DNA of 59,389 nt from an uncultured archaeon. Lineage in GTDB: Archaea; EX4484-52; JAADEF01. The notes under the pieces are model-generated. The model did not search any database. It was not told the DNA's origin and saw nothing but the letters and a program-made list of their open reading frames with translations. The position numbers and the translations under genes are program-made. Positions 3,400-59,389 of the stretch are shown piece after piece. How positions within the stretch are numbered: position 1 is the stretch's first letter; each line of letters starts with the position of its first letter. The stretch is taken from assembly GCA_964407715.1 (NCBI GenBank), contig CAYOWP010000002.1, positions 53,838-113,226 of the forward strand, written 5' to 3'.

Positions 3400-3816
3400 A
3401 TGAAAAAAAGATATTCTTTTTGTTTGATACCTGGATGCTTTCTTTGTATCCATCCTGGACATATATTTTTATTTGAAAAAGCAAAAGAAATGTGCGAATC
3501 TCTTATTGTAGTTTTGGCGCATGACAAAAAAATAAAAGAAAAGTACAATATCAAAGATAACACAATGAAAGATAGAAAAAAGATGTTAGAGGCAATAAAA
3601 TATATAGATCATGTGATAGAGGGTTATGAGAAAAAAGAGGATTTTTTAAAGGTGTTAGATTTATTTCCTTTTGATGCCATTATCTTCTGTAAGTCGCATG
3701 ACATACCAAAAGAAGTGTTAGATACCTTAAAAAATATCAAAAAAGATATAGATATAGTTGTTTTGGATTGTTATAAAAAAGAGATATTTTCTACAAGGAA
3801 GGTGTTGGACATATGA
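3400..3816 (+). CDS. cytidylyltransferase-fold nucleotidyltransferase (archaeal FAD synthase RibL / PPAT-like)
   Basis: 138-aa protein with the nucleotidyltransferase signature GxFxxxHPGH (PGCFLCIHPGHIFLF). Size and layout match archaeal RibL-like enzymes. Confidence 0.55.
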   Translation: MKKRYSFCLIPGCFLCIHPGHIFLFEKAKEMCESLIVVLAHDKKIKEKYNIKDNTMKDRKKMLEAIKYIDHVIEGYEKKEDFLKVLDLFPFDAIIFCKSHDIPKEVLDTLKNIKKDIDIVVLDCYKKEIFSTRKVLDI

Positions 3817-4644: not shown

Positions 4645-4937
4645 GGGAAGATGCTAAGAAGCGATGCTGCCTTTGGCAGCAGGAAAGTCCCCTCCCCAAT
4701 CACGGCAACCTCTCGCAAGAGAGGGTCCCGAGAGGGACGGCTCTGCCACAGAAAATAACCTCTAAAAAGCAAGCAATGATTTGATTTGAGCAATGCACTT
4801 TTTAGAGGATGAAATGGCATCCTTGCCGGGGCAACCTCACAATAGAGGGCTTAGACGGATGCTTCACATCCATCACCGCTTATATTTTGAAAGCGGGATG
4901 ACGGATGCACAGAAAGGGGCTTATTAGCATCATCCCC
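4645..4937 (+). ncRNA. rnpB: RNase P RNA (archaeal)
   Basis: GC-rich ~290-nt island containing the universally conserved P4 5' strand AGGAAAGTCC and the CR-IV-like ACAGAAAGGGGCTTA near the 3' end. The 5' end GGGGAAGATGCTAA is complementary to the 3' end TTAGCATCATCCCC (P1). Only short, compositionally odd ORFs occur here. Confidence 0.85.
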
Positions 4938-4945
4938 ATAAAATT

Positions 4946-5446
4946 TTATGATTTAACAAGCAAATAGAAAATACCTATTAATCCTCCTATTACTACAATT
5001 ATAGAGATTATTTCATTTAAACCATAAAAAGATAACTTATCTAAACCAAAATATCCATAGTTTTCAGTCACGATTAATGCAGCAATTACTGATATAAATG
5101 CAAGCCCTATACCTATGTACACTATCCAAGTTTTTTCTTTAAGAATATCTGTAATGTTTACACCAACTAATGCAGAGATTAAACTACCTAAAAGAAAGAT
5201 TAATATGAAAATGCTAAATATCCAGAATACATTTGCCATAAACATTCCTCTTCCAAAGTATGAAATCAAGAAAGCAACAGACAATGCAATAGCACCATTT
5301 ACAGATGCTTCATCACTAATATATTTTCTATTTTGTAACACTCCATATATCAATGCTGTAAATAGCAACCAAGGAAAAAAGAAATCAAACATGTCCAATC
5401 TTTTCATAAACTCAAACAAATCTCCAAAAGTTATCATAATAACCAC
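4946..5446 (-). CDS. integral membrane protein, unknown function
   Basis: 166 aa with four to five hydrophobic helices. No recognisable motifs. Confidence 0.4.
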   Translation of the reverse strand: MVIMITFGDLFEFMKRLDMFDFFFPWLLFTALIYGVLQNRKYISDEASVNGAIALSVAFLISYFGRGMFMANVFWIFSIFILIFLLGSLISALVGVNITDILKEKTWIVYIGIGLAFISVIAALIVTENYGYFGLDKLSFYGLNEIISIIVVIGGLIGIFYLLVKS

Positions 5447-5506
5447 AAATATTTATTATAAAAACAAATATTTATATTTTTTAAATGACATTTGTAAGGG
5501 ATTCAC

Positions 5507-6337
5507 ATGTATGCCGTATTATTTGCTTTTATTTCCGCATTGATATATAGTATTGAAAATGTTCTTCCTAAATATCTTAAAAGGATGGACGCCATAGATA
5601 TTATAATTTTAAGAGAACTGTTAATGCTGATACCTCTTACTCCATTTTTTATAGAAAAGTTTAGCTCTATCTCATTACTTTTAATACTTTTTGGCTTTTT
5701 ATTAGGTTTTATACCTTACTTTGCATTTCTAAAAGCAGTAAAAATGGGCAAGGCAGGTGTGGTTATTGCGCTCTCACAAACACATAACATATTTTCTATA
5801 TTTTTCTCCTTATTGCTTTTTTCTATATTACCTCCTAAAACATATATTATTCCCTTGATGCTTATGCTTCTTGCAATAGGAATTCTTTATTTATCTAAAC
5901 CTTATTCTTTTGATTTTTTACCTATTATGTACTCTTTAATAGCCGCAATACTTTGGGGTTTGCAAGCAGTAATAATTAAACATTATTTTGCTAATATCTC
6001 CCCATGGGATTTAGTTTATTTTACAGAACTTGGCTTATTCCTTACAGCCTTATTTTATGTGATATTCAAGAAGAAGAAAATCACAAAACCTGTCTTTAAA
6101 GGAGAATATATATGCTTGATCATTATGGCTTATGGAGCTTTAATAGCACTTTATTTTTATATTAAATCTCTACAACTTAGTGAACACCCTTCATTACCAT
6201 TGATAATTCTTCCATCATCCACAATTCTTAGCTGTCTATGGGCTTATCTTCTTTTTAAAGAAAAATTAAAACTGCGAGAGATATTTGCAGTTATTTTATC
6301 AATTATAGCAGTAATTATTGCAAGCATAAAGATATAA
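5507..6337 (+). CDS. EamA/DMT-superfamily-like transporter (10 predicted TM helices)
   Basis: 276 aa, hydrophobic throughout, with a two-fold internal repeat of ~5 TM segments typical of drug/metabolite transporters. Confidence 0.45.
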   Translation: MYAVLFAFISALIYSIENVLPKYLKRMDAIDIIILRELLMLIPLTPFFIEKFSSISLLLILFGFLLGFIPYFAFLKAVKMGKAGVVIALSQTHNIFSIFFSLLLFSILPPKTYIIPLMLMLLAIGILYLSKPYSFDFLPIMYSLIAAILWGLQAVIIKHYFANISPWDLVYFTELGLFLTALFYVIFKKKKITKPVFKGEYICLIIMAYGALIALYFYIKSLQLSEHPSLPLIILPSSTILSCLWAYLLFKEKLKLREIFAVILSIIAVIIASIKI

Positions 6338-17686: not shown

Positions 17687-17742
17687 AATTTTTTATTTCT
17701 TTGATTTAAAATTTATAAAATTTGCTCCTTAGAAAGGTTAGC

Positions 17743-17990
17743 GGCATTGTCCAATAATTCTCTATTTGTTAAGCGGAAAAGTATCCTCTTAAAAAACCGC
17801 ATCAGAGCAGCAAACCTTGTAGAGCTAATGCGATCGTAAGAGCAAATTTTTAGTTAACAACTTCTCATCAAAAATTATTGGACAATTTGTTAACAGGAAG
17901 CATAGCCATATTCAAAGGCTTAACTGTTCTCATGCGCTTCTTTAAGATGTTATTTTTCTGCTTAACAATAAGGAATTATTGGACAATGCC
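17743..17990. repeat. dispersed repeat family, locus A: one complete TIR-bounded unit (17743-17886) abutting a second core plus TIR (17887-17990)
   Basis: GGCATTGTCCAATAAT at 17743, internal ATTATTGGACAAT at 17874, ATTATTGGACAATGCC ending 17990. Core sequences (GTTAACAGGAAGCATAGCCATATTCAAAGGCTTAACTGTTCTCATGCGCTTCTTTAAGATG...CTGCTTAAC) match the other loci. Confidence 0.8.
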
Positions 17991-18242
17991 AAGGATAGCT
18001 GATTATGTGTTATTTTTAAACACGATAACTTTAAAAAATTAACGGTAAGATACCGAAAAATTTAAATATAGATTTGAATTATAATCATTTAAGTGGTGAA
18101 AATGAAAACTTTAAATTTTAAAAAGAACATTTATGATATTTTTATCAGAGATAAGAATATAAAAAATAAGCATAATTTATCTTTTTCTTGTACAAGGTAT
18201 TATATAGTAGTAGCTATGAAGGTGCTTCCATTCTGGATATAA

Positions 18243-22044: not shown

Positions 22045-22092
22045 TATACATCATAGAAATTTAAAATAATTCAAATTGTTTTTGAAAAACCA

Positions 22093-22227
22093 GCATTGTC
22101 CAATAATATATTTTTGAAAAATTTGGTTAACGGGAAACATAGCCCTATTCAAAGGGTTAACTGCTCTCATGTGCTTCTTTAAGAGGTTATGGTTCCGCTT
22201 AACAAATAGAGAATTATTGGACAATGC
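22093..22227. repeat. dispersed repeat family, locus B: single complete 135-bp unit with 15/16-bp terminal inverted repeats
   Basis: GCATTGTCCAATAAT (22093-22107) ... core GGTTAACGGGAAACATAGCCCTATTCAAAGGGTTAACTGCTCTCATGTGCTTCTTTAAGAGGTTATGGTTCCGCTTAAC ... ATTATTGGACAATGC (22213-22227). It lies in the divergent rtcB/gyrB intergenic region. Confidence 0.8.
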
Positions 22228-22266
22228 CTGAAAACCCTTTTAAAATCCTGTCTCTTTTAATAATCT

Positions 22267-28265: not shown

Positions 28266-29183
28266 ATGGTACTATCCTCTAAAGAGATTGAGTTTTTAAA
28301 CTCAAGAATAAAAATAAGGAGAGATGATTTTTTAGAGATAACATCACGTATATCTCCAAAAAGGAGGGAAAGACATATATTCAGATATGCTGAAAAAGGA
28401 GAAAAAGGAATATGCATATTCTGCAAGGAAAATTTGAGGAGATATGTAAAAATTGAAATTAATGGAAAGATATATAGAAGAGGAGAAAGCATAATTTTTT
28501 ATAATAAATATCCTTTTGCATCACACCATCTTGTGGGATTGCTATGTGAAAAACATAACTTAGAAATGAGTGAGTTCTCTAAGGAGATGTTTGAAAACCT
28601 ATTGTTATTGACAAGAGAATACTATAAAGATGAAGGTCTCGACAATTTTTATGTATATTTTAACATGAACTTTTCTCCAGAGGCAGGGGCATCACAACAA
28701 CACCCTCATGTGCAAATATATATAGAAGATGCAAAAAGCACGCTTCATAGAACAATTGAAAAGAACAAAAATCTTTTTGCTATGTGGTTAGAGCAACATA
28801 AAGAAAAAGGATTACTTATAAACAAGAAAGATATCAAATATATATTTAACTATGCTCCTCTGGGCAATAATAACATAACCATACACCTTCCTTTCTCATC
28901 TTCCAAAGAGATGTTAAGGCTGAAAAGCATAAAGTTATTAAGTAATGGAATTATAAATATTATTCATCTCTATGATACTCTAAATGAGAGATGTTTTAAT
29001 TTTAGCATATTTCCAACAAAGATTGGCACATTTGGATTTTTTATAACTCGAAATCAAGCGCGAGAAAGATATGTCAATGATAGAGGATTCATGGAAACAA
29101 TATTGCGTGAAATTGTGGTTAACACAGACCCTAAGGAGATATCAAAAGCCTTCAATTCTTTTTTAAGAGAACACGAGGCTTAG
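28266..29183 (+). CDS. GalT-like HIT-superfamily nucleotidyltransferase/phosphorylase (Gal-1-P uridylyltransferase family)
   Basis: His-phi-His-phi-Gln motif (QQHPHVQIY) characteristic of the GalT branch of the HIT superfamily, plus an N-terminal Cys pair (CIFC) like the GalT zinc site. Confidence 0.5.
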   Translation: MVLSSKEIEFLNSRIKIRRDDFLEITSRISPKRRERHIFRYAEKGEKGICIFCKENLRRYVKIEINGKIYRRGESIIFYNKYPFASHHLVGLLCEKHNLEMSEFSKEMFENLLLLTREYYKDEGLDNFYVYFNMNFSPEAGASQQHPHVQIYIEDAKSTLHRTIEKNKNLFAMWLEQHKEKGLLINKKDIKYIFNYAPLGNNNITIHLPFSSSKEMLRLKSIKLLSNGIINIIHLYDTLNERCFNFSIFPTKIGTFGFFITRNQARERYVNDRGFMETILREIVVNTDPKEISKAFNSFLREHEA

Positions 29184-29199
29184 TTCAACAATTATACAC

Positions 29200-29446
29200 T
29201 TCTTTAAAAGGCTACTTTTTAACAAGGAATTATACCCCATCAATGAGCAGCAGTAGAGCAGCTAACCTTAAAGATGACATGCTACAAAACCTATAGTAAT
29301 AGCGATTTCTTCCAGTTAACAAAATCATTTAAAATGGTTAACAGGAAGCATAGCCTTATTCAAAGGGTTAAATCGCTATAAGTGCTATTTGCGTGTTAAG
29401 TTTCCGCTTAACAAAATTTTGTTAATAAGGGATTATTGGACAACGC
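29200..29446. repeat. dispersed repeat family, locus C: extended copy ending in a TIR variant (ATTATTGGACAACGCC)
   Basis: 29213-29443 is the near-exact reverse complement of part of locus F (48250-48470). It includes the core GGTTAACAGGAAGCATAGCCTTATTCAAAGGGTTAAATCGCTATAAGTGCTATTTGCGTGTTAAGTTTCCGCTTAAC. Confidence 0.75.
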
Positions 29447-29502
29447 CAGAACACAAGAATTAAACGCAAAAAATATATCCTATAATGAGAAAAATATAAT
29501 AT

Positions 29503-33288: not shown

Positions 33289-33297
33289 GAGGTTTTT

Positions 33298-33378
33298 TTG
33301 TTAACTGGAAACATAACCTTTCAAAGAAGCGCATGAGAGCAGTTAACCCTTTGAATAGGGCTATGCTTTTCCTTTAAC
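33298..33378. repeat. dispersed repeat family, locus D: core-only copy in reverse orientation, no TIRs
   Basis: Reverse complement reads GGTTAAAGGAAAAGCATAGCCCTATTCAAAGGGTTAACTGCTCTCATGCGCTTCTTTGAAAGGTTATGTTTCCAGTTAACAA. Its two ~19-nt termini (GTTAACTGGAAACATAACC) form a perfect inverted repeat. Confidence 0.75.
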
Positions 33379-33431
33379 CAAATCTCTCAATTCTAAAATT
33401 ATATATGCCAGAAAACCTCATTTAATATATT

Positions 33432-43906: not shown

Positions 43907-44398
43907 TCACCTTTTTATAAATCTTGGAATTTGAAGAATTGGCGGTAAAGATAGAACTTCTGTTAAATACATGAATTTTGGAATTCCTCTTTTTATTATG
44001 GCATTGAGTATCTCTACTTCTTTTCCTTTTAAATTCCCCTCTTTTTTCCAATTTTTTTCCAAATCCCTTGCTTCTTTTTCATCTTTTGTCGCATACAAAA
44101 TATCGCCATTCATGCTCAATAATGCAACTTCATTATTATTTTGAATATATCTTATCATAAAAGAATATTTTATATTTAACGCAGATATCTTAATTTCTTT
44201 TTCCAATAATGAATTAATTATCTTTGTTTCTTTAACATCTTCTATTTTTGGATTGTGCTCTATTTTTACTTTTCCAATTATAGGTTTTTTAACCTCTCCT
44301 TTTATCTCCTTAATTGTTATTCCTACTATAGACATATTTTCACCCTTATAGAAAAATTTCATTATTAAATATTTAAAAGTTTTACTATAATGTAGCAT
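43907..44398 (-). CDS. hypothetical protein
   Basis: 163-aa ORF. The likely start is the internal MSIVGITIKE. No motifs. Confidence 0.3.
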   Translation of the reverse strand: MLHYSKTFKYLIMKFFYKGENMSIVGITIKEIKGEVKKPIIGKVKIEHNPKIEDVKETKIINSLLEKEIKISALNIKYSFMIRYIQNNNEVALLSMNGDILYATKDEKEARDLEKNWKKEGNLKGKEVEILNAIIKRGIPKFMYLTEVLSLPPILQIPRFIKR

Positions 44399-44900
44399 GC
44401 TAACTTTAAAGAGAGGTTAACTGCTTCAATGTGCTTCATTAAGAGCATATTTTTCCCTTAACCAATTTTTATTTAAAAAATTTTGGTTAAGGGAAAGCAT
44501 AACCCCTTCTCGAGGCATATCACAGCAGGTAATCTCTCCGAGCGTTTAGGAAGCAGCTAACCTTTCTTCAGGTTAGCATGCTGTAATATGGTCGCGAATA
44601 TGATATCATCCCGTTAACCATATTATTCAAAATTAAATAAAATTTGGTTAAGGGGAACTATGCCTTACATCTATACCTTCATTGCAGCAGTTAACCTGAA
44701 GAAAGGTTACCTGCTCAAATGTGTTTTTGAGATGGTATGTTTCCCCTTAACCATTTTTATTCAAAATAATTGGTTAACGAGCAGAAATCGCTTTTCTAAA
44801 GCATACTGTAGCATGATAATCTTCTTTTTAGGTTATCTGCTTCTAATGTGTTTTCTTGGTTATGTGTATTTTCCTTTAACAAAATTATTTAAAATGCGAG
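44395..44900. repeat. dispersed repeat family, locus E: ~500-bp tandem array of at least five degenerate core copies, no TIRs
   Basis: Successive units beginning GGTTAACTGCTTCAATGTGCTTCATTAAGAG..., TTGGTTAAGGGAAAGCATAACCCC..., AGCAGCTAACCTTTCTTCAGGTTAGCATGCTGTAATATGG...CCGTTAACC, TTGGTTAAGGGGAACTATGCC...GTTTCCCCTTAACC, TTGGTTAACGAGCAGAAATCGC...TTTCCTTTAAC. All are recognisably related to the cores at loci B, C and F. Confidence 0.7.
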
Positions 44901-44956
44901 AAAATTGCTTTTTAAGTTAAAAATTATATTAATCTTCTTCGATATAAATAATATTT

Positions 44957-47819: not shown

Positions 47820-48128
47820 TTATTTTTTCTTTTTCTTCTTTTTCTTCTTCTCTATTTTTTCTATTCCTATCTTTTTCACATTAGCCTTATAAATCTCGTC
47901 ACCCATCCAAGATGGCCTGTTTGCAGGTGCTTTAACCTTTGTTCTAGAACCTTCATATATATGTATTTTGTTTGTTCCTCTTTCCCTTAATCTTATTTTC
48001 TTATATCCTCTGTTTGCAGCCTTTAATGCTGCTTGTCTTGGTGTCCTTCCAGTGAATACACCGATTTCATTTCCTTTGTCATCTAGCAATACAAAATACC
48101 TTTTTCCTTTTTTACCTGCCATTTTCAC
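47820..48128 (-). CDS. chromosomal protein MC1 family, with C-terminal poly-lysine tail
   Basis: RYFVLLDDKGNEIGVFTGRTPRQAALKAANRGYKKIRLRERGTNKIHIYEG...NRPSWMGDEI is near-colinear with the MC1 consensus (NFVLRDE-GNE-GVFTGKQPRQAALKAANRG...RLRERGTKK). It ends in 11 consecutive Lys. Confidence 0.8.
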   Translation of the reverse strand: MKMAGKKGKRYFVLLDDKGNEIGVFTGRTPRQAALKAANRGYKKIRLRERGTNKIHIYEGSRTKVKAPANRPSWMGDEIYKANVKKIGIEKIEKKKKKKKKK

Positions 48129-48224
48129 CTACCTCCTTGACCTCTCCATATAGAATGTCACATGCTTATAATATATTATATATCCGAAAATATTTATATA
48201 TTTATCGGTTATCATTAGATTTTT

Positions 48225-48595
48225 GGCATTGTCCAATAATCCTCTATTAACAAAATTTTGTTAAGCGGAAACTTAACACGCAAATAGCACTTATAGCACT
48301 TAACCCTTTGAATAGGGCTATGCTTCTCGTTAACCATTTTAAATGATTTTGTTAATGGGAAGAAATCGCTATTACTACAGGTTTTGTAGCATGTTAACCT
48401 CATCTTTAAGGTTAGCTGCTTTACTGCTGCTCATTGACTGGGTATAATTCCTTGTTAAAAAGTAGCCTCTTAAAGAAGCGCATCAGAGCAGCAAATCTTA
48501 TAGAGCTAATGCAATTCAAAGGGTTAAACTGCTCTCATGCGCTTCTTTAAGAGGTTATATTTCCGCTTAACAATAGAGAATTATTGGACAATGCC
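48225..48595. repeat. dispersed repeat family, locus F: 371-bp composite bounded by perfect 16-bp TIRs, holding a reverse-orientation core, a long spacer shared with locus C, and a forward core
   Basis: GGCATTGTCCAATAAT at 48225 and ATTATTGGACAATGCC ending 48595. Internal 26-nt inverted repeat CCTCTTAAAGAAGCGCATCAGAGCAG / CTGCTCTCATGCGCTTCTTTAAGAGG. Confidence 0.8.
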
Positions 48596-48644
48596 TAGAT
48601 TTTTATAAGAAACTTTTAAAATACTTTATATATATCAAGAATTT

Positions 48645-49676
48645 ATGGGAGTAAATATAAGAGAGCTTGTGGATGATTGTAGAGAAGAGATTTCCTATGA
48701 GATGCTTAGCGGCAAGACAATAGCATTAGATGCATTTAATATTCTCTATCAGTTTTTGGCAGCAATAAGACAGCCTGATGGTACACCTCTTATGGATTCT
48801 AAAGGCAATATAACCTCTCATCTCTCTGGGATTTTTTATAGGAGCATATCCTTGATGGAATATAATATAAAATTGGTGTATGTTTTTGATGGAGAAAAGC
48901 CAAGTTTTAAGGAAGAGGAGATAAAAAAGAGATTACAGGCAAAGGAAGAGGCTGAGGAGAAATGGAGAAGAAGCATAGAGGAAGGTAACTTAGAGGAGGC
49001 AAAAAAATATGCTCAGGGAGCATCATATCTTACACCTCAAATGGTAGAGGAGGCAAAGAGACTGATAAAAGCTATGGGTATGTGCTATGTGGATGCTCCA
49101 TCAGAGGGAGAAGCACAAGCAGCATATTTAGCAAAGATTAATAAAGTATATGCCGCAGGATCTCAGGATTATGATTCATTGCTTTTTGGCTCTCCAATTT
49201 TGATAAGGAATCTTGGTGTTACTGGTAAAAGGAAGATTCCTGGAACGAATCAATATAAAGAGATAAATTTGGAGAGGATTTTTCTTGAGAAGATATTGGA
49301 AGAGTACAAACTTACACAGGATCAATTGATATGTTTAGGTATCTTGGTTGGTACAGATTATGCAGAGAACGGAGTAGAGGGTATAGGAGTAAAGAAGGCA
49401 TTAGAGATAGTAAGAATATACAAAACACCAGATAAAATATTTTCTGCCATAAAGGATAAGTGGGAACATGATGTTGATTTTATGAAAATATATGAGTTTT
49501 TTAAAGAGCCTCCCGTAAGAGATGTGGAGATATCTTTTGATAGATTGAATGAAGAAGAAATATATAAGATCCTTGTAGATGAGCACGATTTTTCTCAAGA
49601 AAGGGTCTCTAATGCTATAGAGAGATTAAAAAAAGCAAAGAGTAAAACATCCCAAAGGACACTTTTTAGTTTCTGA
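48645..49676 (+). CDS. fen: flap endonuclease 1
   Basis: N-domain MGVNIRELV..., I-domain acidic residues, H3TH motif (GIGVKKALEIV), C-terminal PIP-like tail. Confidence 0.9.
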   Translation: MGVNIRELVDDCREEISYEMLSGKTIALDAFNILYQFLAAIRQPDGTPLMDSKGNITSHLSGIFYRSISLMEYNIKLVYVFDGEKPSFKEEEIKKRLQAKEEAEEKWRRSIEEGNLEEAKKYAQGASYLTPQMVEEAKRLIKAMGMCYVDAPSEGEAQAAYLAKINKVYAAGSQDYDSLLFGSPILIRNLGVTGKRKIPGTNQYKEINLERIFLEKILEEYKLTQDQLICLGILVGTDYAENGVEGIGVKKALEIVRIYKTPDKIFSAIKDKWEHDVDFMKIYEFFKEPPVRDVEISFDRLNEEEIYKILVDEHDFSQERVSNAIERLKKAKSKTSQRTLFSF

Positions 49677-51755: not shown

Positions 51756-52748
51756 TCACTCTGTGCTTGCCAATATTGTCAATGTACCTGTTGGCACATT
51801 TCCGTCAGGTACTCCATAAGGTACATGCAATTCTACATCTGCAATTAAACTATCTCCTGGATATATGGTATTGCCATTATTCAAAGTTAATCCTACCTGA
51901 CTACCACCAAATGCAGTACATGAACTTGCTCCTGGTGCATCTGCATTCCATCTAAAGATTCTTATTTTTGAACAGTCATAGTATACGGCAACACAATATG
52001 TAGTACCTCCTATTTCTATACCATTTATAAGACCCCAATCTGAATCTCCTGTAGCGCCAATATTTGCCCATTTAACATTTCCATCAATCAAATCAATTGT
52101 ACCTGTGTTTGTAGTGTTGTGAGGCTCCACTCCTATCACAATATCTGCATCTGTGCCTGTGGAACCATTACAATATGGTTCTGGATCTGTTGAAGTTGTT
52201 GCATTTATCACCCAGAAATATTCATGGTTAGCATCTCTTATTTTTCCAAAACTTACCCAATTGTCTGGTTTCTGGAGATATATGTAATCTGTGCTTGAAT
52301 TGAATTCTACTCTATCAACAAAACTCATGTTTGCACCTGTGTAATCTGTTGGCTTTAACAATAACCAGTTTCCTGAATCATAATTTTGTAAGTTACCTGT
52401 TCCGAACGGATTACTTGAAGGTTGTGATACATTTGCCCATACATATGTTATATCCGTAGAACCCATATTTTCTATCTGTATTTGGCTTAGTGTTACCCCA
52501 TCTTCAGTATCTGTATATTGCGTTAACACAGTTCCAGGATCCGCATTACCCCAATCCATTCCTGCAGGAGTAACATCTATTATTGTTTTATTGTTTACTG
52601 TTACTGTAACCTGAGAGCTATCTGTTGCATCTGCCGTATACGCGTTTGCAATACCATCAAAATCTAAAAATAATCCAGCAATTAAAGCACCTAAAATCGT
52701 CAACACAAAAGCCATTTTACTCATGCTCTTTAATTCTACCCTTTTCAT
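51756..52748 (-). CDS. secreted surface protein, paralogue 1 of a pair
   Basis: Signal peptide (MAFVLTILGALIAGLFL), beta-rich, T/N/G-rich. Shares colinear blocks with 53018-54016 (ITYVWANVSQPSSNPF / ITKIWLNNSYPSSRPF; RIFRWNAD / RIFFVRWNAD; GTLTILAS / GTLTVYAS; TYCVAV / TYCVFI). Confidence 0.5.
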   Translation of the reverse strand: MKRVELKSMSKMAFVLTILGALIAGLFLDFDGIANAYTADATDSSQVTVTVNNKTIIDVTPAGMDWGNADPGTVLTQYTDTEDGVTLSQIQIENMGSTDITYVWANVSQPSSNPFGTGNLQNYDSGNWLLLKPTDYTGANMSFVDRVEFNSSTDYIYLQKPDNWVSFGKIRDANHEYFWVINATTSTDPEPYCNGSTGTDADIVIGVEPHNTTNTGTIDLIDGNVKWANIGATGDSDWGLINGIEIGGTTYCVAVYYDCSKIRIFRWNADAPGASSCTAFGGSQVGLTLNNGNTIYPGDSLIADVELHVPYGVPDGNVPTGTLTILASTE

Positions 52749-52787: not shown

Positions 52788-53018
52788 TTATTCTACCCAC
52801 CACATCATTTTTTTGCTCAATCCAACCCTTGCTGATTTTTCTTCTCCTTTGATAATGCCTTTATCTTTTAGTTTATAGCAATAGGTATTAGCAGTGCTCC
52901 ATGCAATGCCCAATTTTTTGGCTATTTGATATGTTGTTAGCGGTTTTTTCTCCTTCTTTAATATCTCTACAATTAATTTCTCAATGCTTTTCATATTCTC
53001 TACCATCAATCCCACCAT
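52788..53018 (-). CDS. small winged-HTH transcriptional regulator
   Basis: 76 aa. LTTYQIAKKLGIAWSTANTYCYKLKDKGII is a typical HTH recognition-helix pattern. It sits between the two paralogous secreted-protein genes, sharing a stop/start base with the upstream gene. Confidence 0.5.
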   Translation of the reverse strand: MVGLMVENMKSIEKLIVEILKKEKKPLTTYQIAKKLGIAWSTANTYCYKLKDKGIIKGEEKSARVGLSKKMMWWVE

Positions 53019-54016
53019 TATGCTGATGAAGCATATACTGTCAGCGTACCTGTGCTTAGATCACCACTTGCAGTACCAAATGGGACTCTTATATGAACCC
53101 ATGCCTTATAAAACCCTCCTGGTGGTATAGGTTCAGAGTTTATATAGCCACTGTTCATGATGTTGGTGCATATTGTTTGAACTGTTGAATCAGCAAGAAA
53201 ATCAGCATTCCATCTAACAAAGAAGATTCTTGCACCAGTTGCTGGGCAAGACACTGGTATAAATACACAATAAGTCTCACCATCTCCAAAATCAACTTCT
53301 CCTACATCATATTGCTGTCCATCTAATACTCCTCCTCCTGTGTTCAATGTTACTGGAGTAAATGGAATAGGTGTTTGATCCCTTAAATCCACATCACCAG
53401 TACTTGTCACTGTCTTTGGAGATGAAGTATTGATATAGAGCTGTCCATTTGAACAATTGTTTGAATATTGGCTTATATATTCAAAGAAGTATTCAGTACT
53501 ACCATTCCTAAATCTTCCAAAAATTATTCCAATATCGTTTAAATTTGTATTGGGAACTTTTATATATAATGGATCATCTTCCTCATATTCAACCCTATTT
53601 ATAAACATAAAATGACTATCAGGAGCATTTCCAGAGTTGTTAGCTATAACAACAAAGTTTGCTGGATCATAAGCTAAAGGATTAGCTGTGGCAAATGGTC
53701 TTGAGGAAGGATATGAGTTATTTAGCCAAATCTTTGTGATATTTACTGAACCTATATTTTCTATCCATATATTTTCATAGTTATTTGCCTCTGCACTTCC
53801 ATTATATTCTTTTCCAGGCTCAACATTATACCATGATAATGATGAAGGATTGATATCTACCATAGTTTTTTCAGAGACATTCACAAATATGGTGATGGTA
53901 TCATTTGCCTCTGAGATTGGAGCATATACTCTATGGATATTGAATATTGATAAAATAATTACAAAACAAACTATTAAGAACACAATACTTCCTATTTTTG
54001 TTCTTGTATGCTCCAT
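53018..54016 (-). CDS. secreted surface protein, paralogue 2 of a pair
   Basis: N-terminal signal/anchor (IGSIVFLIVCFVIILSIF). Colinear similarity to 51756-52748. Several N-x-S/T sequons. Confidence 0.5.
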   Translation of the reverse strand: MEHTRTKIGSIVFLIVCFVIILSIFNIHRVYAPISEANDTITIFVNVSEKTMVDINPSSLSWYNVEPGKEYNGSAEANNYENIWIENIGSVNITKIWLNNSYPSSRPFATANPLAYDPANFVVIANNSGNAPDSHFMFINRVEYEEDDPLYIKVPNTNLNDIGIIFGRFRNGSTEYFFEYISQYSNNCSNGQLYINTSSPKTVTSTGDVDLRDQTPIPFTPVTLNTGGGVLDGQQYDVGEVDFGDGETYCVFIPVSCPATGARIFFVRWNADFLADSTVQTICTNIMNSGYINSEPIPPGGFYKAWVHIRVPFGTASGDLSTGTLTVYASSA

Positions 54017-57716: not shown

Positions 57717-59389
57717 ATGAGATATCTATTGTTCATCGCGATGCTTTTACTCATACTTTTCACATTACCTTTTTCCTATGCAGCCACCTCTCTCAACTCC
57801 TGCACCACAATCTCATCTCCAGGAGTTTACTATCTCACCTCTGACATCACTGACTCAAGCAGTACTTGCTTTACTATCTCCTCTTCTGACGTAATTTTGG
57901 ATTGCCAAGGACATGTGATTGATGGTACTCAAGCCTCTGGTAGTTATGGCATATATGCCAGTGGCTCCTTAAGCAACATCACCATAAGAAACTGCAAAAT
58001 CCAAGAGTTTTATTATGGAATTTACTTCTATAATGGTGTTCATGATAGCAAGATAGAGAATGTTGTGAGTAATAGCAACAATGGATATGGCATCCGGCTT
58101 AATGGCGGTTCCTCCAACACATTAACAAACATCACTACTGAGAATAACAATTGGGGTGGCATCCTTCTTGATTCCTCATCCTCCAACACCTTAACAAACA
58201 TCACTGCTAAGAATAATCACGACGACGGTATTCATCTCTATTCCTCTTCTTCCAACACCTTAACAAACATCACTGCCAATAATAACGGTGAGGATGGCAT
58301 TTATCTCTCTTCCTCTTCCTCCAACATAATAGCAAATTCCACAATAAAATACAATGCTCAATATGGTATTTATCTTACTTATTCAGATAACAACAACATC
58401 ACATCCACAACAATCACATTCAATTCTCAAGGTATTTACTTTAATGGCAACTCAGACAACAACATCTTCAAAAACAATACCATACTCAAAAACAAATTTA
58501 ATGATATAAGAATAACATCCAGTGATAATAACAATCTCTTTTATAACAATCTATTATCTACAGCTAAATATAAAATCTCAGATGAATCATCAACAACAAA
58601 ATGGAACTATACGAATATAGGAAATCACTGGCTAGATTATGATGCTGAACATGAAGGATGCTATGATACTAACAATGACAATATATGTGATGATCCTTAT
58701 GCTATCAATGATAAATATGATTACTATCCAATCTATACAGGAACACCTCAAAAAACATTTACTTGCTCATCATGTAGCGAGTGTACATCTATAATACAAA
58801 ACAATGCAACTCCCAATGATATAGTGCAATTAACTGTTGATATTATTGATTCCACCACATCTAAATGCATATATTTTGATCCTTATACATATCCAGAAAT
58901 AATATTTGATTGTCAAAACCATTTAATAGATGGAGATGACAATGTTGATTATGGAATTTATATTGATTATACTCAAGGCATTACAATCAAAAACTGTCAA
59001 TTAACAGATTGGGATTCTGCAAATATCTACTTAACCAATGTTAAATATAATACCTTAAAGAATATAATCACTAAAAGTAGTCCAGATCGTGGCATCTATC
59101 TCCGTTCCTCTTCCTTCAACACATTAACAAACATCACTGCTAAGAATAACAATTGGGATGGCATTTTTCTCTATTCCTCTTCCAACTATAACACATTAAC
59201 CAACATCACTGCCAATAATAATAACTGTGGCATCTGGCTTCATTCCTCTTCCAACTATAACACATTAACCAACATCACTGCCAATAATAACAATCGGGAT
59301 GGCATCTATCTCCTTTCCTCTTCCTCCAACACATTAACAAACATCACTGCCAATAGTAACTCTCGTTATGGCATCTATCTTGATTCCTC
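57717..59389 (+). CDS. secreted right-handed parallel beta-helix repeat protein (adhesin/NosD-pectate-lyase-like), 3'-truncated by window end
   Basis: ATG at 57717. Signal peptide MRYLLFIAMLLLILFTLPFSYA, then repeated 22-aa units (SSNTLTNITANNN-xDGIYL-SSS) typical of PbH1 beta-helix repeats. The frame stays open to the end of the window. Confidence 0.65.
   Translation, partial: MRYLLFIAMLLLILFTLPFSYAATSLNSCTTISSPGVYYLTSDITDSSSTCFTISSSDVILDCQGHVIDGTQASGSYGIYASGSLSNITIRNCKIQEFYYGIYFYNGVHDSKIENVVSNSNNGYGIRLNGGSSNTLTNITTENNNWGGILLDSSSSNTLTNITAKNNHDDGIHLYSSSSNTLTNITANNNGEDGIYLSSSSSNIIANSTIKYNAQYGIYLTYSDNNNITSTTITFNSQGIYFNGNSDNNIFKNNTILKNKFNDIRITSSDNNNLFYNNLLSTAKYKISDESSTTKWNYTNIGNHWLDYDAEHEGCYDTNNDNICDDPYAINDKYDYYPIYTGTPQKTFTCSSCSECTSIIQNNATPNDIVQLTVDIIDSTTSKCIYFDPYTYPEIIFDCQNHLIDGDDNVDYGIYIDYTQGITIKNCQLTDWDSANIYLTNVKYNTLKNIITKSSPDRGIYLRSSSFNTLTNITAKNNNWDGIFLYSSSNYNTLTNITANNNNCGIWLHSSSNYNTLTNITANNNNRDGIYLLSSSSNTLTNITANSNSRYGIYLDS
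58108..58330 (+). repeat. intragenic ~66-nt tandem DNA repeats (block 1) encoding beta-helix rungs
   Basis: Units CCTCCAACAC(A/C)TTAACAAACATCACTGC(T/C)AA(G/T)AATAA...GGCAT...ATCTC..TTCCTCTTC repeated ~3.5 times. Confidence 0.7.
59095..59389 (+). repeat. intragenic ~66-69-nt tandem DNA repeats (block 2), continuing past the window end
   Basis: At least 4.5 copies of TCCTCTTCC(AACTAT)AACACATTAAC(A/C)AACATCACTGCCAATAATAA...GGCATCT..CT. Confidence 0.7.

What the first reader, a model, noticed from the sequence alone, without database searches (positions are those of the whole stretch)
48225..48595. Loci F and A are nested palindromic composites; the F spacer is shared with locus C in opposite orientation
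Locus F is bounded by perfect TIRs. It holds a reverse core, a ~120-nt spacer and a forward core, with an internal 26-nt inverted repeat (CCTCTTAAAGAAGCGCATCAGAGCAG / CTGCTCTCATGCGCTTCTTTAAGAGG). Its spacer plus reverse core is the near-exact reverse complement of locus C (29213-29443). Elements larger than the core have therefore been copied as a unit, which is evidence of recent mobility or recombination between copies. Locus A shows the same element-next-to-element structure.
Basis: seen in the sequence. Interest (0 to 1): 0.55.

Follow-up and report, generated by a model that had tools for sequence, protein, structure and literature searches.

The report
Modular hairpin MITEs in an archaeon
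Loci F, A and C are copies of one family of small, gene-less "jumping" DNA elements (MITEs) in an uncultured AT-rich archaeon, each with 24-bp inverted ends that resemble those of the bacterial insertion sequence IS903 and each flanked by a 9-bp duplication of its insertion site; the kind of element is ordinary, but this family has not been described.

Summary
F (48225-48595) has inverted ends that match 16/16 (23/24 over 24 nt) and an internal inverted repeat matching 25/26. Its left 259 nt are 91% identical to the reverse complement of locus C, and the "spacer" alone is 89% identical.

The interpretation, that composites are copied as units, is supported and can be made sharper. F, A, B and C are each flanked by 9-bp direct repeats: F 9/9, the others 8/9. 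Across the window and related metagenome contigs, 11 of 23 end-bounded copies show at least 8/9, against 0 of 506 mismatched control pairs. These are therefore MITEs.

Their ends (GGCATTGTCCAATAATTC) match the IS903 end at 14/18 positions. A 9-bp duplication plus GGC ends is the signature of the IS903 group of the IS5 family. No transposase gene was found in 217 kb.

The interiors are built from 80-136-nt palindromic units, which also occur as free head-to-tail arrays (locus E). A is the family's standard 250-nt form, with at least 9 copies at 81-89% identity. C is a complete 271-nt copy that supplies the stop codon of the gene it sits in.

There is no evidence for an RNA role. Verdict: a new member of a known kind, of modest interest.

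The parts
48216..48224 (.). F: left copy of the 9-bp target-site duplication, TAGATTTTT
   Evidence: Identical 9-mer at 48596-48604, directly abutting both ends
48225..48248 (+). F: left terminal inverted repeat, GGCATTGTCCAATAATCCTCTATT
   Evidence: 16/16 and 23/24 to the reverse complement of 48572-48595; 13/18 to the IS903 end
48258..48336 (-).
   Evidence: 93.8% to C 29335-29414; family D2/D6/I10; unit list
48349..48461 (+).
   Evidence: 89.4% to the reverse complement of C 29216-29322; best nhmmer hit of the 107-nt unit profile, E = 1.4e-22
48462..48573 (+). F: hybrid hairpin. Arm 48462-48491, loop 48492-48528, arm 48529-48558, then the unit terminus. It corresponds to the standard A-type interior with ~75 nt deleted.
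   Evidence: F 234-291 matches A 35-92 (89.7%) and F 290-371 matches A 168-248 (90.2%); I14 34-nt arms at 88%
48572..48595 (-). F: right terminal inverted repeat, AATAGAGAATTATTGGACAATGCC
   Evidence: 14/18 to the IS903 end; also present at the start of an independent Logan contig
48596..48604 (.). F: right copy of the 9-bp target-site duplication, TAGATTTTT
17734..17999 (.). Locus A: standard 250-nt MITE. Left end 17743-17766, module t3 17766-17860, internal partial end 17870-17886, module t1 17887-17968, right end 17967-17990. Duplication AAGGTTAGC (17734-17742) / AAGGATAGC (17991-17999).
   Evidence: 81-89% identical to at least 9 copies in contigs of metagenome Ga0190367
22083..22237 (.). 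Locus B: 137-nt one-module MITE (22092-22228) with duplication TGAAAAACC / TGAAAACCC, between the divergent genes for RtcB and gyrase B
   Evidence: 89.8% to L019 1041-1175
29168..29456 (.). Locus C: complete 271-nt MITE (29177-29447). Variant left end GGCTTAGTTCAACAATTA (29177-29194), stub of t3, t2 reversed (29216-29322), t1 (29335-29414), right end 29424-29447. Duplication AGAACACGA / AGAACACAA. Overlaps the last two codons and the stop codon of ORF 28266-29183.
33297..33381 (-). Locus D: solitary t1-type hairpin unit without recognisable outer ends (probably a decayed copy)
   Evidence: (I4, I6)
44389..44882 (+). Locus E: free array of one half unit and three full hairpin units (135, 107 and 110 nt) separated by AT-rich spacers of about 17-25 nt; a degenerate end-like sequence follows at about 44881-44897
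   Evidence: confirmed at 100% identity in an independent Logan contig

Best explanation
F, A, B and C are non-autonomous DNA transposons (MITEs) of a single family.

Anatomy: each copy is delimited by about 24-bp terminal inverted repeats (consensus GGCATTGTCCAATAATTCTCTATT). Each was inserted as a whole by a DDE transposase supplied from elsewhere, which cut the target with a 9-bp stagger and so left a 9-bp direct repeat on both sides.

Likely enzyme: the end sequence together with the 9-bp duplication points to a transposase of the IS903 group of the IS5 family.

Interior: the elements carry no gene. The interior is a variable string of one to three palindromic 'hairpin units' of 80-136 nt, bounded by TGGTTAACGGGAA / TTCCCSTTAACCA. 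Recombination, deletion and use of an internal end copy have reshuffled these units.
- A is the standard two-unit, 250-nt form.
- F is a three-unit form whose third unit carries a ~75-nt deletion.
- C is a shorter relative of F.

Location: surviving copies sit in the only free slot of a very compact genome, just upstream of the BRE/TATA core promoter (the archaeal core promoter elements) of the neighbouring gene.

Shown here: the inverted ends, the duplications, multiple copies at unrelated sites, homology ending exactly at the element ends, the absence of coding capacity, and one nested insertion.

Inferred: the identity and present activity of the transposase, and how the units were shuffled.
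For: - Inverted ends: 16/16 and 23/24 in F. The end motif occurs 9 times against 1.16 expected.
- 9-bp duplications at the exact ends: F 9/9; A, B and C 8/9. At least 8/9 in 11 of 23 end-bounded elements, against 0 of 506 mismatched left/right control pairs.
- Homology between C, F, L023 and L019 copies ends precisely at the element end, and the flanks are unrelated.
- 24 end-bounded copies of 89-390 nt lie in 217 kb (window plus 15 loci from contigs of metagenome Ga0190367), with a mode near 250 nt.
- A whole F-type composite recurs at L023 2456-2803 with a 9/9 duplication.
- One copy is inserted into the end of another, with the duplication AGACAATGC taken from that end (L015).
- Similarity to IS903: its 18-bp end GGCTTTGTTGAATAAATC was read from an annotated IS903 copy. 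The MITE end matches at 14/18. A match that good occurs about once per shuffled 59-kb window on both strands.
- All IS903-group elements in PMC3281130 Table 2 make 9-bp repeats. MITEAba12/ISAba12 have ends GGCTTTGTTGCACAAA and 9-bp duplications (PMC6382973).
- No ORF of 80 aa or more lies inside F.
- Relatives whose FEN-1 is 67-73% identical have fen-1 upstream regions of only 37-115 nt and no family members.
Against: - No transposase was found. There is none among 48 window ORFs scanned against Pfam. tblastn with the IS903 transposase found nothing in the window or loci. None appeared in a partial Pfam scan of 61 ORFs from the related contigs, which lists only the top 25 families.
- About half of the end-bounded copies lack a clear duplication.
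- Hairpin units also occur in long arrays without outer ends. Their termini and centre stay conserved despite ~35-40% divergence elsewhere, which the MITE model alone does not explain.
- F's interior (48275-48566) rests on one assembly. An independent Logan assembly breaks at 48274 and 48567.
- No empty-site allele or insertion polymorphism was observed.
- The IS903 comparison was chosen from memory because of the 9-bp/GGC signature, so its significance is somewhat overstated.
Confidence: 0.8

Rival explanations
1. The hairpin units are the primary entities. In this view they are self-propagating or host-functional palindromic repeats (REP/BIME-like or MJRE-like, or protein-binding site arrays), and the end-bounded MITEs merely captured them. 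The sharing between C and F would then reflect unit-level spread plus gene conversion.
For: - 79 units in four discrete size classes (~80, 94, 107, 136 nt), against 0 in a shuffled control.
- Head-to-tail arrays of up to 6 units without outer ends.
- Termini and centre are conserved, while the remainder of array units is only ~60-65% identical.
Against: - No duplication or other insertion signature was seen for single units.
- Some end-bounded copies with intact duplications carry array-type units (L022 11176-11565, 8/9), so arrays may be expanded or decayed MITE interiors.
- The C/F identity is continuous across linkers and the outer end, not unit by unit.
- No Y1/RAYT-type gene in the window.
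Confidence: 0.12
2. The units or the composites are genes for structured non-coding RNAs, and the palindromy reflects RNA secondary structure under selection.
For: - Several units fold far better than shuffles (z = -6.1 and -7.7).
- AT-rich spacers contain TATA-like and oligo-T stretches.
- Arrays have a consistent polarity.
Against: - No Rfam family at the gathering threshold or at E <= 1 apart from sub-threshold generic hairpin matches.
- RNAalifold supports only the conserved terminal stem.
- On a proposed full structure, pairing and covariation equal the shuffled controls: 75.0% against 75.0%, with 255 of 500 shuffles reaching the observed value.
- No significant strand asymmetry in folding energy or G-U content (p = 0.067).
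- Other units fold no better than shuffles (z = -1.3 and -1.4).
Confidence: 0.05
3. The composite structure of F, and its identity with C, is an assembly artefact: a short-read assembler joined repeat copies wrongly.
For: The independent Logan assembly of SRR7051321 stops at 48274 and restarts at 48567, so the interior of F is not independently confirmed.
Against: - Both ends of F, with their duplications, are present in the independent contigs.
- The same three-unit order (t1 reversed, t2, t3) occurs in L023 2456-2803, in a different assembly, with a 9/9 duplication.
- Locus E is reproduced at 100% identity.
Confidence: 0.04

Closest known systems
MITEAba12 and its parent ISAba12 (Acinetobacter; described in PMC6382973)
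   Same: A non-coding element with GGC-initiated inverted ends (GGCTTTGTTGCACAAA against GGCATTGTCCAATAAT here). It makes a 9-bp target duplication, occurs in many copies, and is mobilised by an enzyme supplied from elsewhere. In both cases identity with the presumed parent is confined to the ends.
   Different: MITEAba12 is a uniform 113 bp with a known co-resident parent IS, and it is bacterial. Here sizes range from 89 to 390 nt, the interior is mosaic and multi-hairpin, the host is an archaeon, and no parent IS was found.
IS903 (IS5 family, IS903 group)
   Same: The 18-bp end GGCTTTGTTGAATAAATC matches the MITE end at 14/18 positions. The group makes 9-bp duplications (PMC3281130 Table 2; also my own knowledge of the ISfinder family table).
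   Different: IS903 is 1057 bp and encodes a DDE transposase. The elements here encode nothing, and no IS903-like transposase was detected in 217 kb.
MJRE1-3, palindromic repetitive elements of Methanocaldococcus jannaschii (Suyama, Lathe & Bork 2005; known to me from the abstract and cited in PMC2229807)
   Same: About 100-nt palindromic repeats filling the intergenic DNA of an AT-rich archaeon, with some copies reaching into coding regions (compare locus C and the stop codon).
   Different: This organism is not a Methanococcales member: its FEN-1 is much closer to Pyrococcus than to M. jannaschii. Sequence relatedness to MJRE could not be tested. Whether MJRE have inverted ends plus duplications is unknown to me.
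Bacterial interspersed mosaic elements (BIMEs) / REP clusters
   Same: A mosaic, combinatorial arrangement of a few palindromic unit types in either orientation, separated by short linkers in intergenic DNA.
   Different: REP units are 20-40 nt, lack inverted ends and duplications, and are linked to RAYT (Y1) transposases. Here the composites have 24-bp inverted ends and 9-bp duplications.
Sulfolobus MITEs SM1-SM4 (Redder et al. 2001; from my own knowledge, cited in PMC2229807 and PMC10969869)
   Same: Archaeal MITEs matched to IS families through their ends and duplication length.
   Different: Different IS families, hosts and sequences, and a uniform interior.

Membership tests
Prokaryotic MITE | Terminal inverted repeats | tested here: met
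   F 16/16 and 23/24. The same ends bound 24 elements.
Prokaryotic MITE | Target-site duplication of fixed length directly abutting the ends | tested here: met
   9 bp. F 9/9; A, B and C 8/9. 11 of 23 elements at >=8/9 against 0 of 506 control pairs.
Prokaryotic MITE | Small size and no coding capacity | tested here: met
   89-390 nt. No ORF of 80 aa or more inside F, A, B or C apart from the host ORF end at C.
Prokaryotic MITE | Many copies at unrelated sites, with homology ending at the element ends | tested here: met
Prokaryotic MITE | A cognate autonomous IS with the same ends in the same genome | tested here: inconclusive
   None in the window or in 158 kb of related contigs.
IS5 family, IS903 group (as the source of the ends) | 9-bp duplication and ends beginning GGC | tested here: met
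   Group properties from PMC3281130 Table 2, PMC6382973 Table 2 and my own knowledge of ISfinder.
IS5 family, IS903 group (as the source of the ends) | End sequence similar to group members | tested here: met
   14/18 to the IS903 end read from NZ_CP031809.1. About 1 such match per shuffled window.
IS5 family, IS903 group (as the source of the ends) | A DDE transposase of the group encoded by the host | tested here: inconclusive
   No tblastn hit at E <= 10 in the family's contigs or the window; the only hit was a spurious one in unrelated viral contig L041. No transposase family among the window ORFs.
REP/BIME (RAYT-mobilised) | 20-40-nt palindromes with a conserved 5' tetranucleotide, no inverted ends or duplications, and an associated Y1 transposase | tested here: not met
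   Units are 80-136 nt. The composites have inverted ends plus a 9-bp duplication. No Y1 transposase domain in the window.
IS200/IS605-derived palindrome-associated elements | No inverted ends, no duplication, insertion 3' of a fixed tetra- or pentanucleotide | tested here: not met
   Inverted ends and 9-bp duplications are present, and the duplicated sequences share no consensus.
MJRE of M. jannaschii | Sequence similarity to the MJRE1-3 consensus | not testable with these tools
   The paper is not held.
Structured RNA family (Rfam or novel) | A covariance-model match, or covariation supporting a conserved fold | tested here: not met
   No Rfam match. Covariation equals the shuffled control. 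RNAalifold supports only the terminal stem.

The most novel reading that the evidence does not exclude
The 80-136-nt hairpin units may be more than passive MITE filling. They could be a previously undescribed class of archaeal repeat with a function or a mobility of its own, for example arrays of binding sites for one protein that recognises GGTTARC. That motif is present at both termini and twice at the centre of each unit, and unit sizes step by ~28 nt. Such units would seed head-to-tail arrays and be carried around by IS903-type ends. Alternatively, the family may be actively targeted to a fixed position 21-27 nt upstream of archaeal TATA boxes, which would be promoter-directed integration in an archaeon.
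Probability: 0.15. Interest if true: 0.6.

Novelty: new member of a known kind. Interest (0 to 1): 0.33.

Why it matters
- It explains the repeat loci of this window with one mechanism and gives exact element boundaries. That helps annotation: locus C changes the C-terminus and stop codon of a gene, and ORFs called across locus E are spurious. It also helps assembly, because contigs break inside these elements.
- It indicates that an IS903-type transposase, best known from enterobacterial plasmids, has been or still is active in a deep-branching, uncultured, AT-rich archaeon with a very compact genome.
- In that genome the surviving copies mark the narrow neutral slot just upstream of core promoters.
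- The family is dense: about 2.7% of this window, with 24 bounded copies and 79 units in 217 kb. It could serve as a strain marker.
- MITE pairs flanking a toxin-antitoxin cassette suggest that the family can move host genes.
- None of this changes what is known about how MITEs work.

Tried and rejected
- **Methanococcales/MJRE idea.** It was prompted by the archaeal RNase P RNA and 31% GC. It was dropped because FEN-1 is far closer to Pyrococcus (E = 4.5e-117) than to M. jannaschii (6.5e-75). The nearest genome-collection relative is a MAG at 60% identity.
- **Genome-collection scan** for 'unit terminus + outer end': 0 hits.
- **Viral-contig scan** for the 16-nt end: 18 hits, all chance. None extends beyond the 16-mer.
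- **Six non-Ga0190367 metagenome hits** were chance matches inside coding sequence.
- **Plasmid and phage collections**: no similarity to F.
- **CRISPR reading of the 69-72-nt tandem repeats at 58-59 kb**: rejected. They encode a beta-helix repeat protein.
- **Solo end at L021 3440** as the possible start of an autonomous IS: it is a remnant next to nucleotidyltransferase/HEPN-like gene pairs.
- **Multi-copy protein families as candidate transposases**: none found.
- **RNA hypothesis**: Rfam, RNAalifold, pair counting and the strand-asymmetry test were all negative.
- **Initial view that C is a one-ended truncated copy**: rejected once its variant left end and 8/9 duplication were found.
- **Empty-site search by exact-protein look-ups**: returned only the same strain or nothing.
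- **Papers**: Suyama 2005 and Filee 2007 are not held. A search for the sample accessions found nothing.

Full report
**Context.** The window is 31% G+C. It carries an archaeal RNase P RNA (4646-4935) and three tRNAs. Its genes are housekeeping ones: Orc1/Cdc6-like, SRP54, GatA, ProRS, GMP synthase, RtcB, gyrase B, primase, anaerobic ribonucleotide reductase, the chromatin protein MC1, FEN-1 and XPD. FEN-1 (48645-49676) is closest to Pyrococcus among solved structures and much further from M. jannaschii. The best hit in the genome collection is a MAG labelled Nanohaloarchaeota, at 60% identity. In the protein database the nearest relatives are 73% and 67% identical, all from metagenomes. The host is therefore an uncultured, deep-branching, AT-rich archaeon. 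I could not name it more closely.

**Checking the observation.** Every stated element is present.
- F spans 48225-48595 exactly. Its ends pair 16/16, and 23/24 over 24 nt.
- The internal inverted repeat is 25/26, or 34 nt at 88% in the repeat finder.
- A global alignment of C (29194-29447) with the reverse complement of F (48225-48483) gives 237 identities in 260 columns (91.2%).
- The alleged spacer is 89.4% identical. Its alignment scores 88, against -9.8 +/- 5 for shuffles, so low complexity is excluded.
- Similarity ends exactly at the outer end of the inverted repeat. Beyond it the flanks are unrelated.
- Folded as single strands, F and A form nested palindromes (z = -9.9 and -7.9).

**What the loci are.**
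- The outer motif ATTATTGGACAATGCC occurs nine times in the window, against about one expected. It always bounds the repeat loci A, B, C and F.
- Immediately outside each pair of ends lies a 9-bp direct repeat: F TAGATTTTT (9/9), A AAGGTTAGC/AAGGATAGC, B TGAAAAACC/TGAAAACCC.
- A metagenome scan for 'unit terminus + outer end' returned 22 loci. Sixteen of them come from contigs of one JGI metagenome (Ga0190367), have the same base composition and are full of the same elements. The other six were chance hits inside genes.
- The window plus 15 of these loci (217 kb; the 16th contributed no unit to the count) hold 24 end-bounded elements of 89-390 nt, with a mode near 250 nt.
- Eleven of 23 tested show at least 8/9 identity between the 9-mers abutting the ends. 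None of 506 mismatched left/right pairs does.
- Inverted ends, a fixed-length target duplication, no coding capacity, and many copies whose homology stops at the ends together define a MITE.

**Locus C revised.** C first looked one-ended. A scan for IS903-like 18-mers then revealed a variant left end, GGCTTAGTTCAACAATTA, at 29177-29194. The 9-mers outside the element are AGAACACGA and AGAACACAA, which match 8/9. C is therefore a complete 271-nt copy. It lies in the last two codons of ORF 28266-29183, and its end supplies the stop codon...REHEA* with the element, against ...REH(K/E)N* for the reconstructed empty site. Both versions are 305 aa.

**Which transposase.** A 9-bp duplication with ends beginning GGC is the signature of the IS903 group of the IS5 family. 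This rests on my own knowledge of the ISfinder table and is consistent with every IS903-group entry in PMC3281130 Table 2. I retrieved an annotated IS903 copy and read its ends. GGCTTTGTTGAATAAATC matches GGCATTGTCCAATAATTC at 14/18 positions, a level reached about once per shuffled window on both strands. MITEAba12/ISAba12 show the same signature, with ends GGCTTTGTTGCACAAA and a 9-bp duplication (PMC6382973). No transposase was found among the window ORFs. tblastn with the IS903 transposase found none in the loci, no multi-copy protein family exists, and a partial Pfam scan of 61 further ORFs showed none. The attribution therefore remains an inference, which I put at roughly 0.6 on its own.

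**Anatomy of the interior.**
- The interiors are made of palindromic units bounded by TGGTTAACGGGAA / TTCCCSTTAACCA. There are 79 such units in 217 kb and none in a shuffled control. They fall into four length classes: ~80, ~94, ~107 and ~136 nt.
- A is: end, t3 (94 nt), a 17-nt internal copy of the end, t1 (80 nt), end. This exact layout recurs at least nine times at 81-89% identity, so it is the family's standard form and not a chance juxtaposition.
- B is: end, linker, t1, end (137 nt), with a copy at 89.8% identity elsewhere.
- F is: end, t1 reversed, t2, then a hairpin that equals A positions 35-92 joined to A positions 168-248. In other words, it is the standard interior with ~75 nt deleted.
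- L023 2456-2803 has the same first 297 nt (83% identity) but ends at the internal end copy, and it has a 9/9 duplication. This shows that the internal end is functional and that F-type composites move as units.
- F has no internal duplication, so it is not demonstrably a nested insertion. A real nested insertion is seen in L015, where a copy sits inside the end of another with duplication AGACAATGC.

**Free arrays.** The same kind of unit, mainly the 107- and 136-nt classes, forms head-to-tail arrays without outer ends. These include locus E (44389-44882) and arrays of up to six units in L010, L018, L007 and L023. Array units are only ~60-65% alike, yet they keep their termini and a central GCAGCTAACCT..AGGTTAGCTGC palindrome. 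Some end-bounded copies with good duplications carry array-type units (L022, 390 nt), so arrays may be expanded or decayed MITE interiors. The conservation of termini and centre remains unexplained.

**Tests for an RNA role.** All were negative.
- No Rfam family matches.
- RNAalifold supports only the terminal stem.
- Pairing and covariation on a full model equal the shuffled controls.
- There is no significant strand bias.

**Position in the genome.** All 24 bounded copies lie outside long ORFs. At 16 of 24 gene-facing ends, a TATA-like heptamer starts 21-27 nt from the element end, while the distance from TATA to ATG varies from 14 to 81 nt. On the other side, the elements often abut a stop codon within 1-12 nt. 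Reconstructed empty intergenic regions are only about 60-160 nt. Survivorship in the one neutral slot upstream of BRE/TATA can therefore explain the pattern, although targeted insertion is not excluded. Relatives with 67-73% FEN-1 identity have 37-115-nt fen-1 upstream regions and no family members in ~36 kb. The family is also absent from the plasmid, phage and viral collections.

**Robustness.** An independent Logan assembly of SRR7051321 reproduces locus E and both ends of F at 100% identity. It breaks at 48274 and 48567, as expected for a repeat. The interior order of F therefore rests on this assembly plus the parallel L023 copy.

**Verdict.** The loci are members of a new, lineage-restricted MITE family with IS903-like ends, 9-bp duplications and a mosaic hairpin interior. 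As a kind of element this is well known. The family, its archaeal host and its modular units and arrays are new details. Interest is modest at 0.33. The open points are the parent transposase and what keeps the hairpin units conserved.

Noticed in passing
L019 1379-2295 and L006 2326-3334: Two MITE copies flank a ~511-nt cassette that encodes a RelE/ParE-type toxin (85 aa) and a small antitoxin. The inner flanks are TTTGATGTT on both sides. In L019 the outer flanks are AGAACTGA on both sides. This looks like a composite-transposon or the product of recombination between copies.
   Followed up: partly
L015 5339-5670: One MITE (5354-5655, 302 nt) is inserted into the right end of another copy, and the 9-bp duplication AGACAATGC is part of that end. 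This is a true nested insertion.
   Followed up: partly
window 29168-29194: Locus C sits in the last two codons of ORF 28266-29183 (DUF4931_N-like, 305 aa). Its variant end GGCTTAG supplies the stop codon, and the reconstructed empty site gives a protein of the same length.
   Followed up: yes
window 57717-59389: The tandem 69-72-nt repeats (repeat finder family D1) could be mistaken for CRISPR. They are the coding repeats of a beta-helix/NosD-like protein that runs off the window end and has paralogues in L004 and L023.
   Followed up: yes
window, and loci L003-L024: gene-facing ends of the MITEs: A TATA-like box starts 21-27 nt from the element end at 16 of 24 gene-facing ends. Many genes appear leaderless, with the TATA box about 22-33 nt before the ATG. 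Targeting and survivorship were not separated.
   Followed up: partly
window 48274 and 48567: The independent Logan assembly of SRR7051321 breaks at both positions inside F, which shows that these repeats fragment short-read assemblies.
   Followed up: yes
window 44389-44464 / ORF 43907-44398: The longest reading of this ORF starts inside a half hairpin unit. The public gene call uses a shorter 126-aa product, so the overlap may be an ORF-calling artefact. The 86-aa ORF 44660-44920 across units e3-e4 is probably spurious.
   Followed up: no
window 47820-48128: The gene next to F encodes the chromatin protein MC1 (PF05854). From my own knowledge this is an architectural protein that prefers bent or cruciform DNA. 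Its position beside a 371-nt palindrome is probably a coincidence.
   Followed up: no
window 51756-52748 and 53018-54016: Two adjacent paralogous ORFs (330 and 332 aa) without any Pfam family.
   Followed up: no
L021 2784-6328: A cluster of nucleotidyltransferase/HEPN-like gene pairs lies next to a solitary MITE end remnant at 3440. The assignment rests on sequence motifs only and was not scanned.
   Followed up: no
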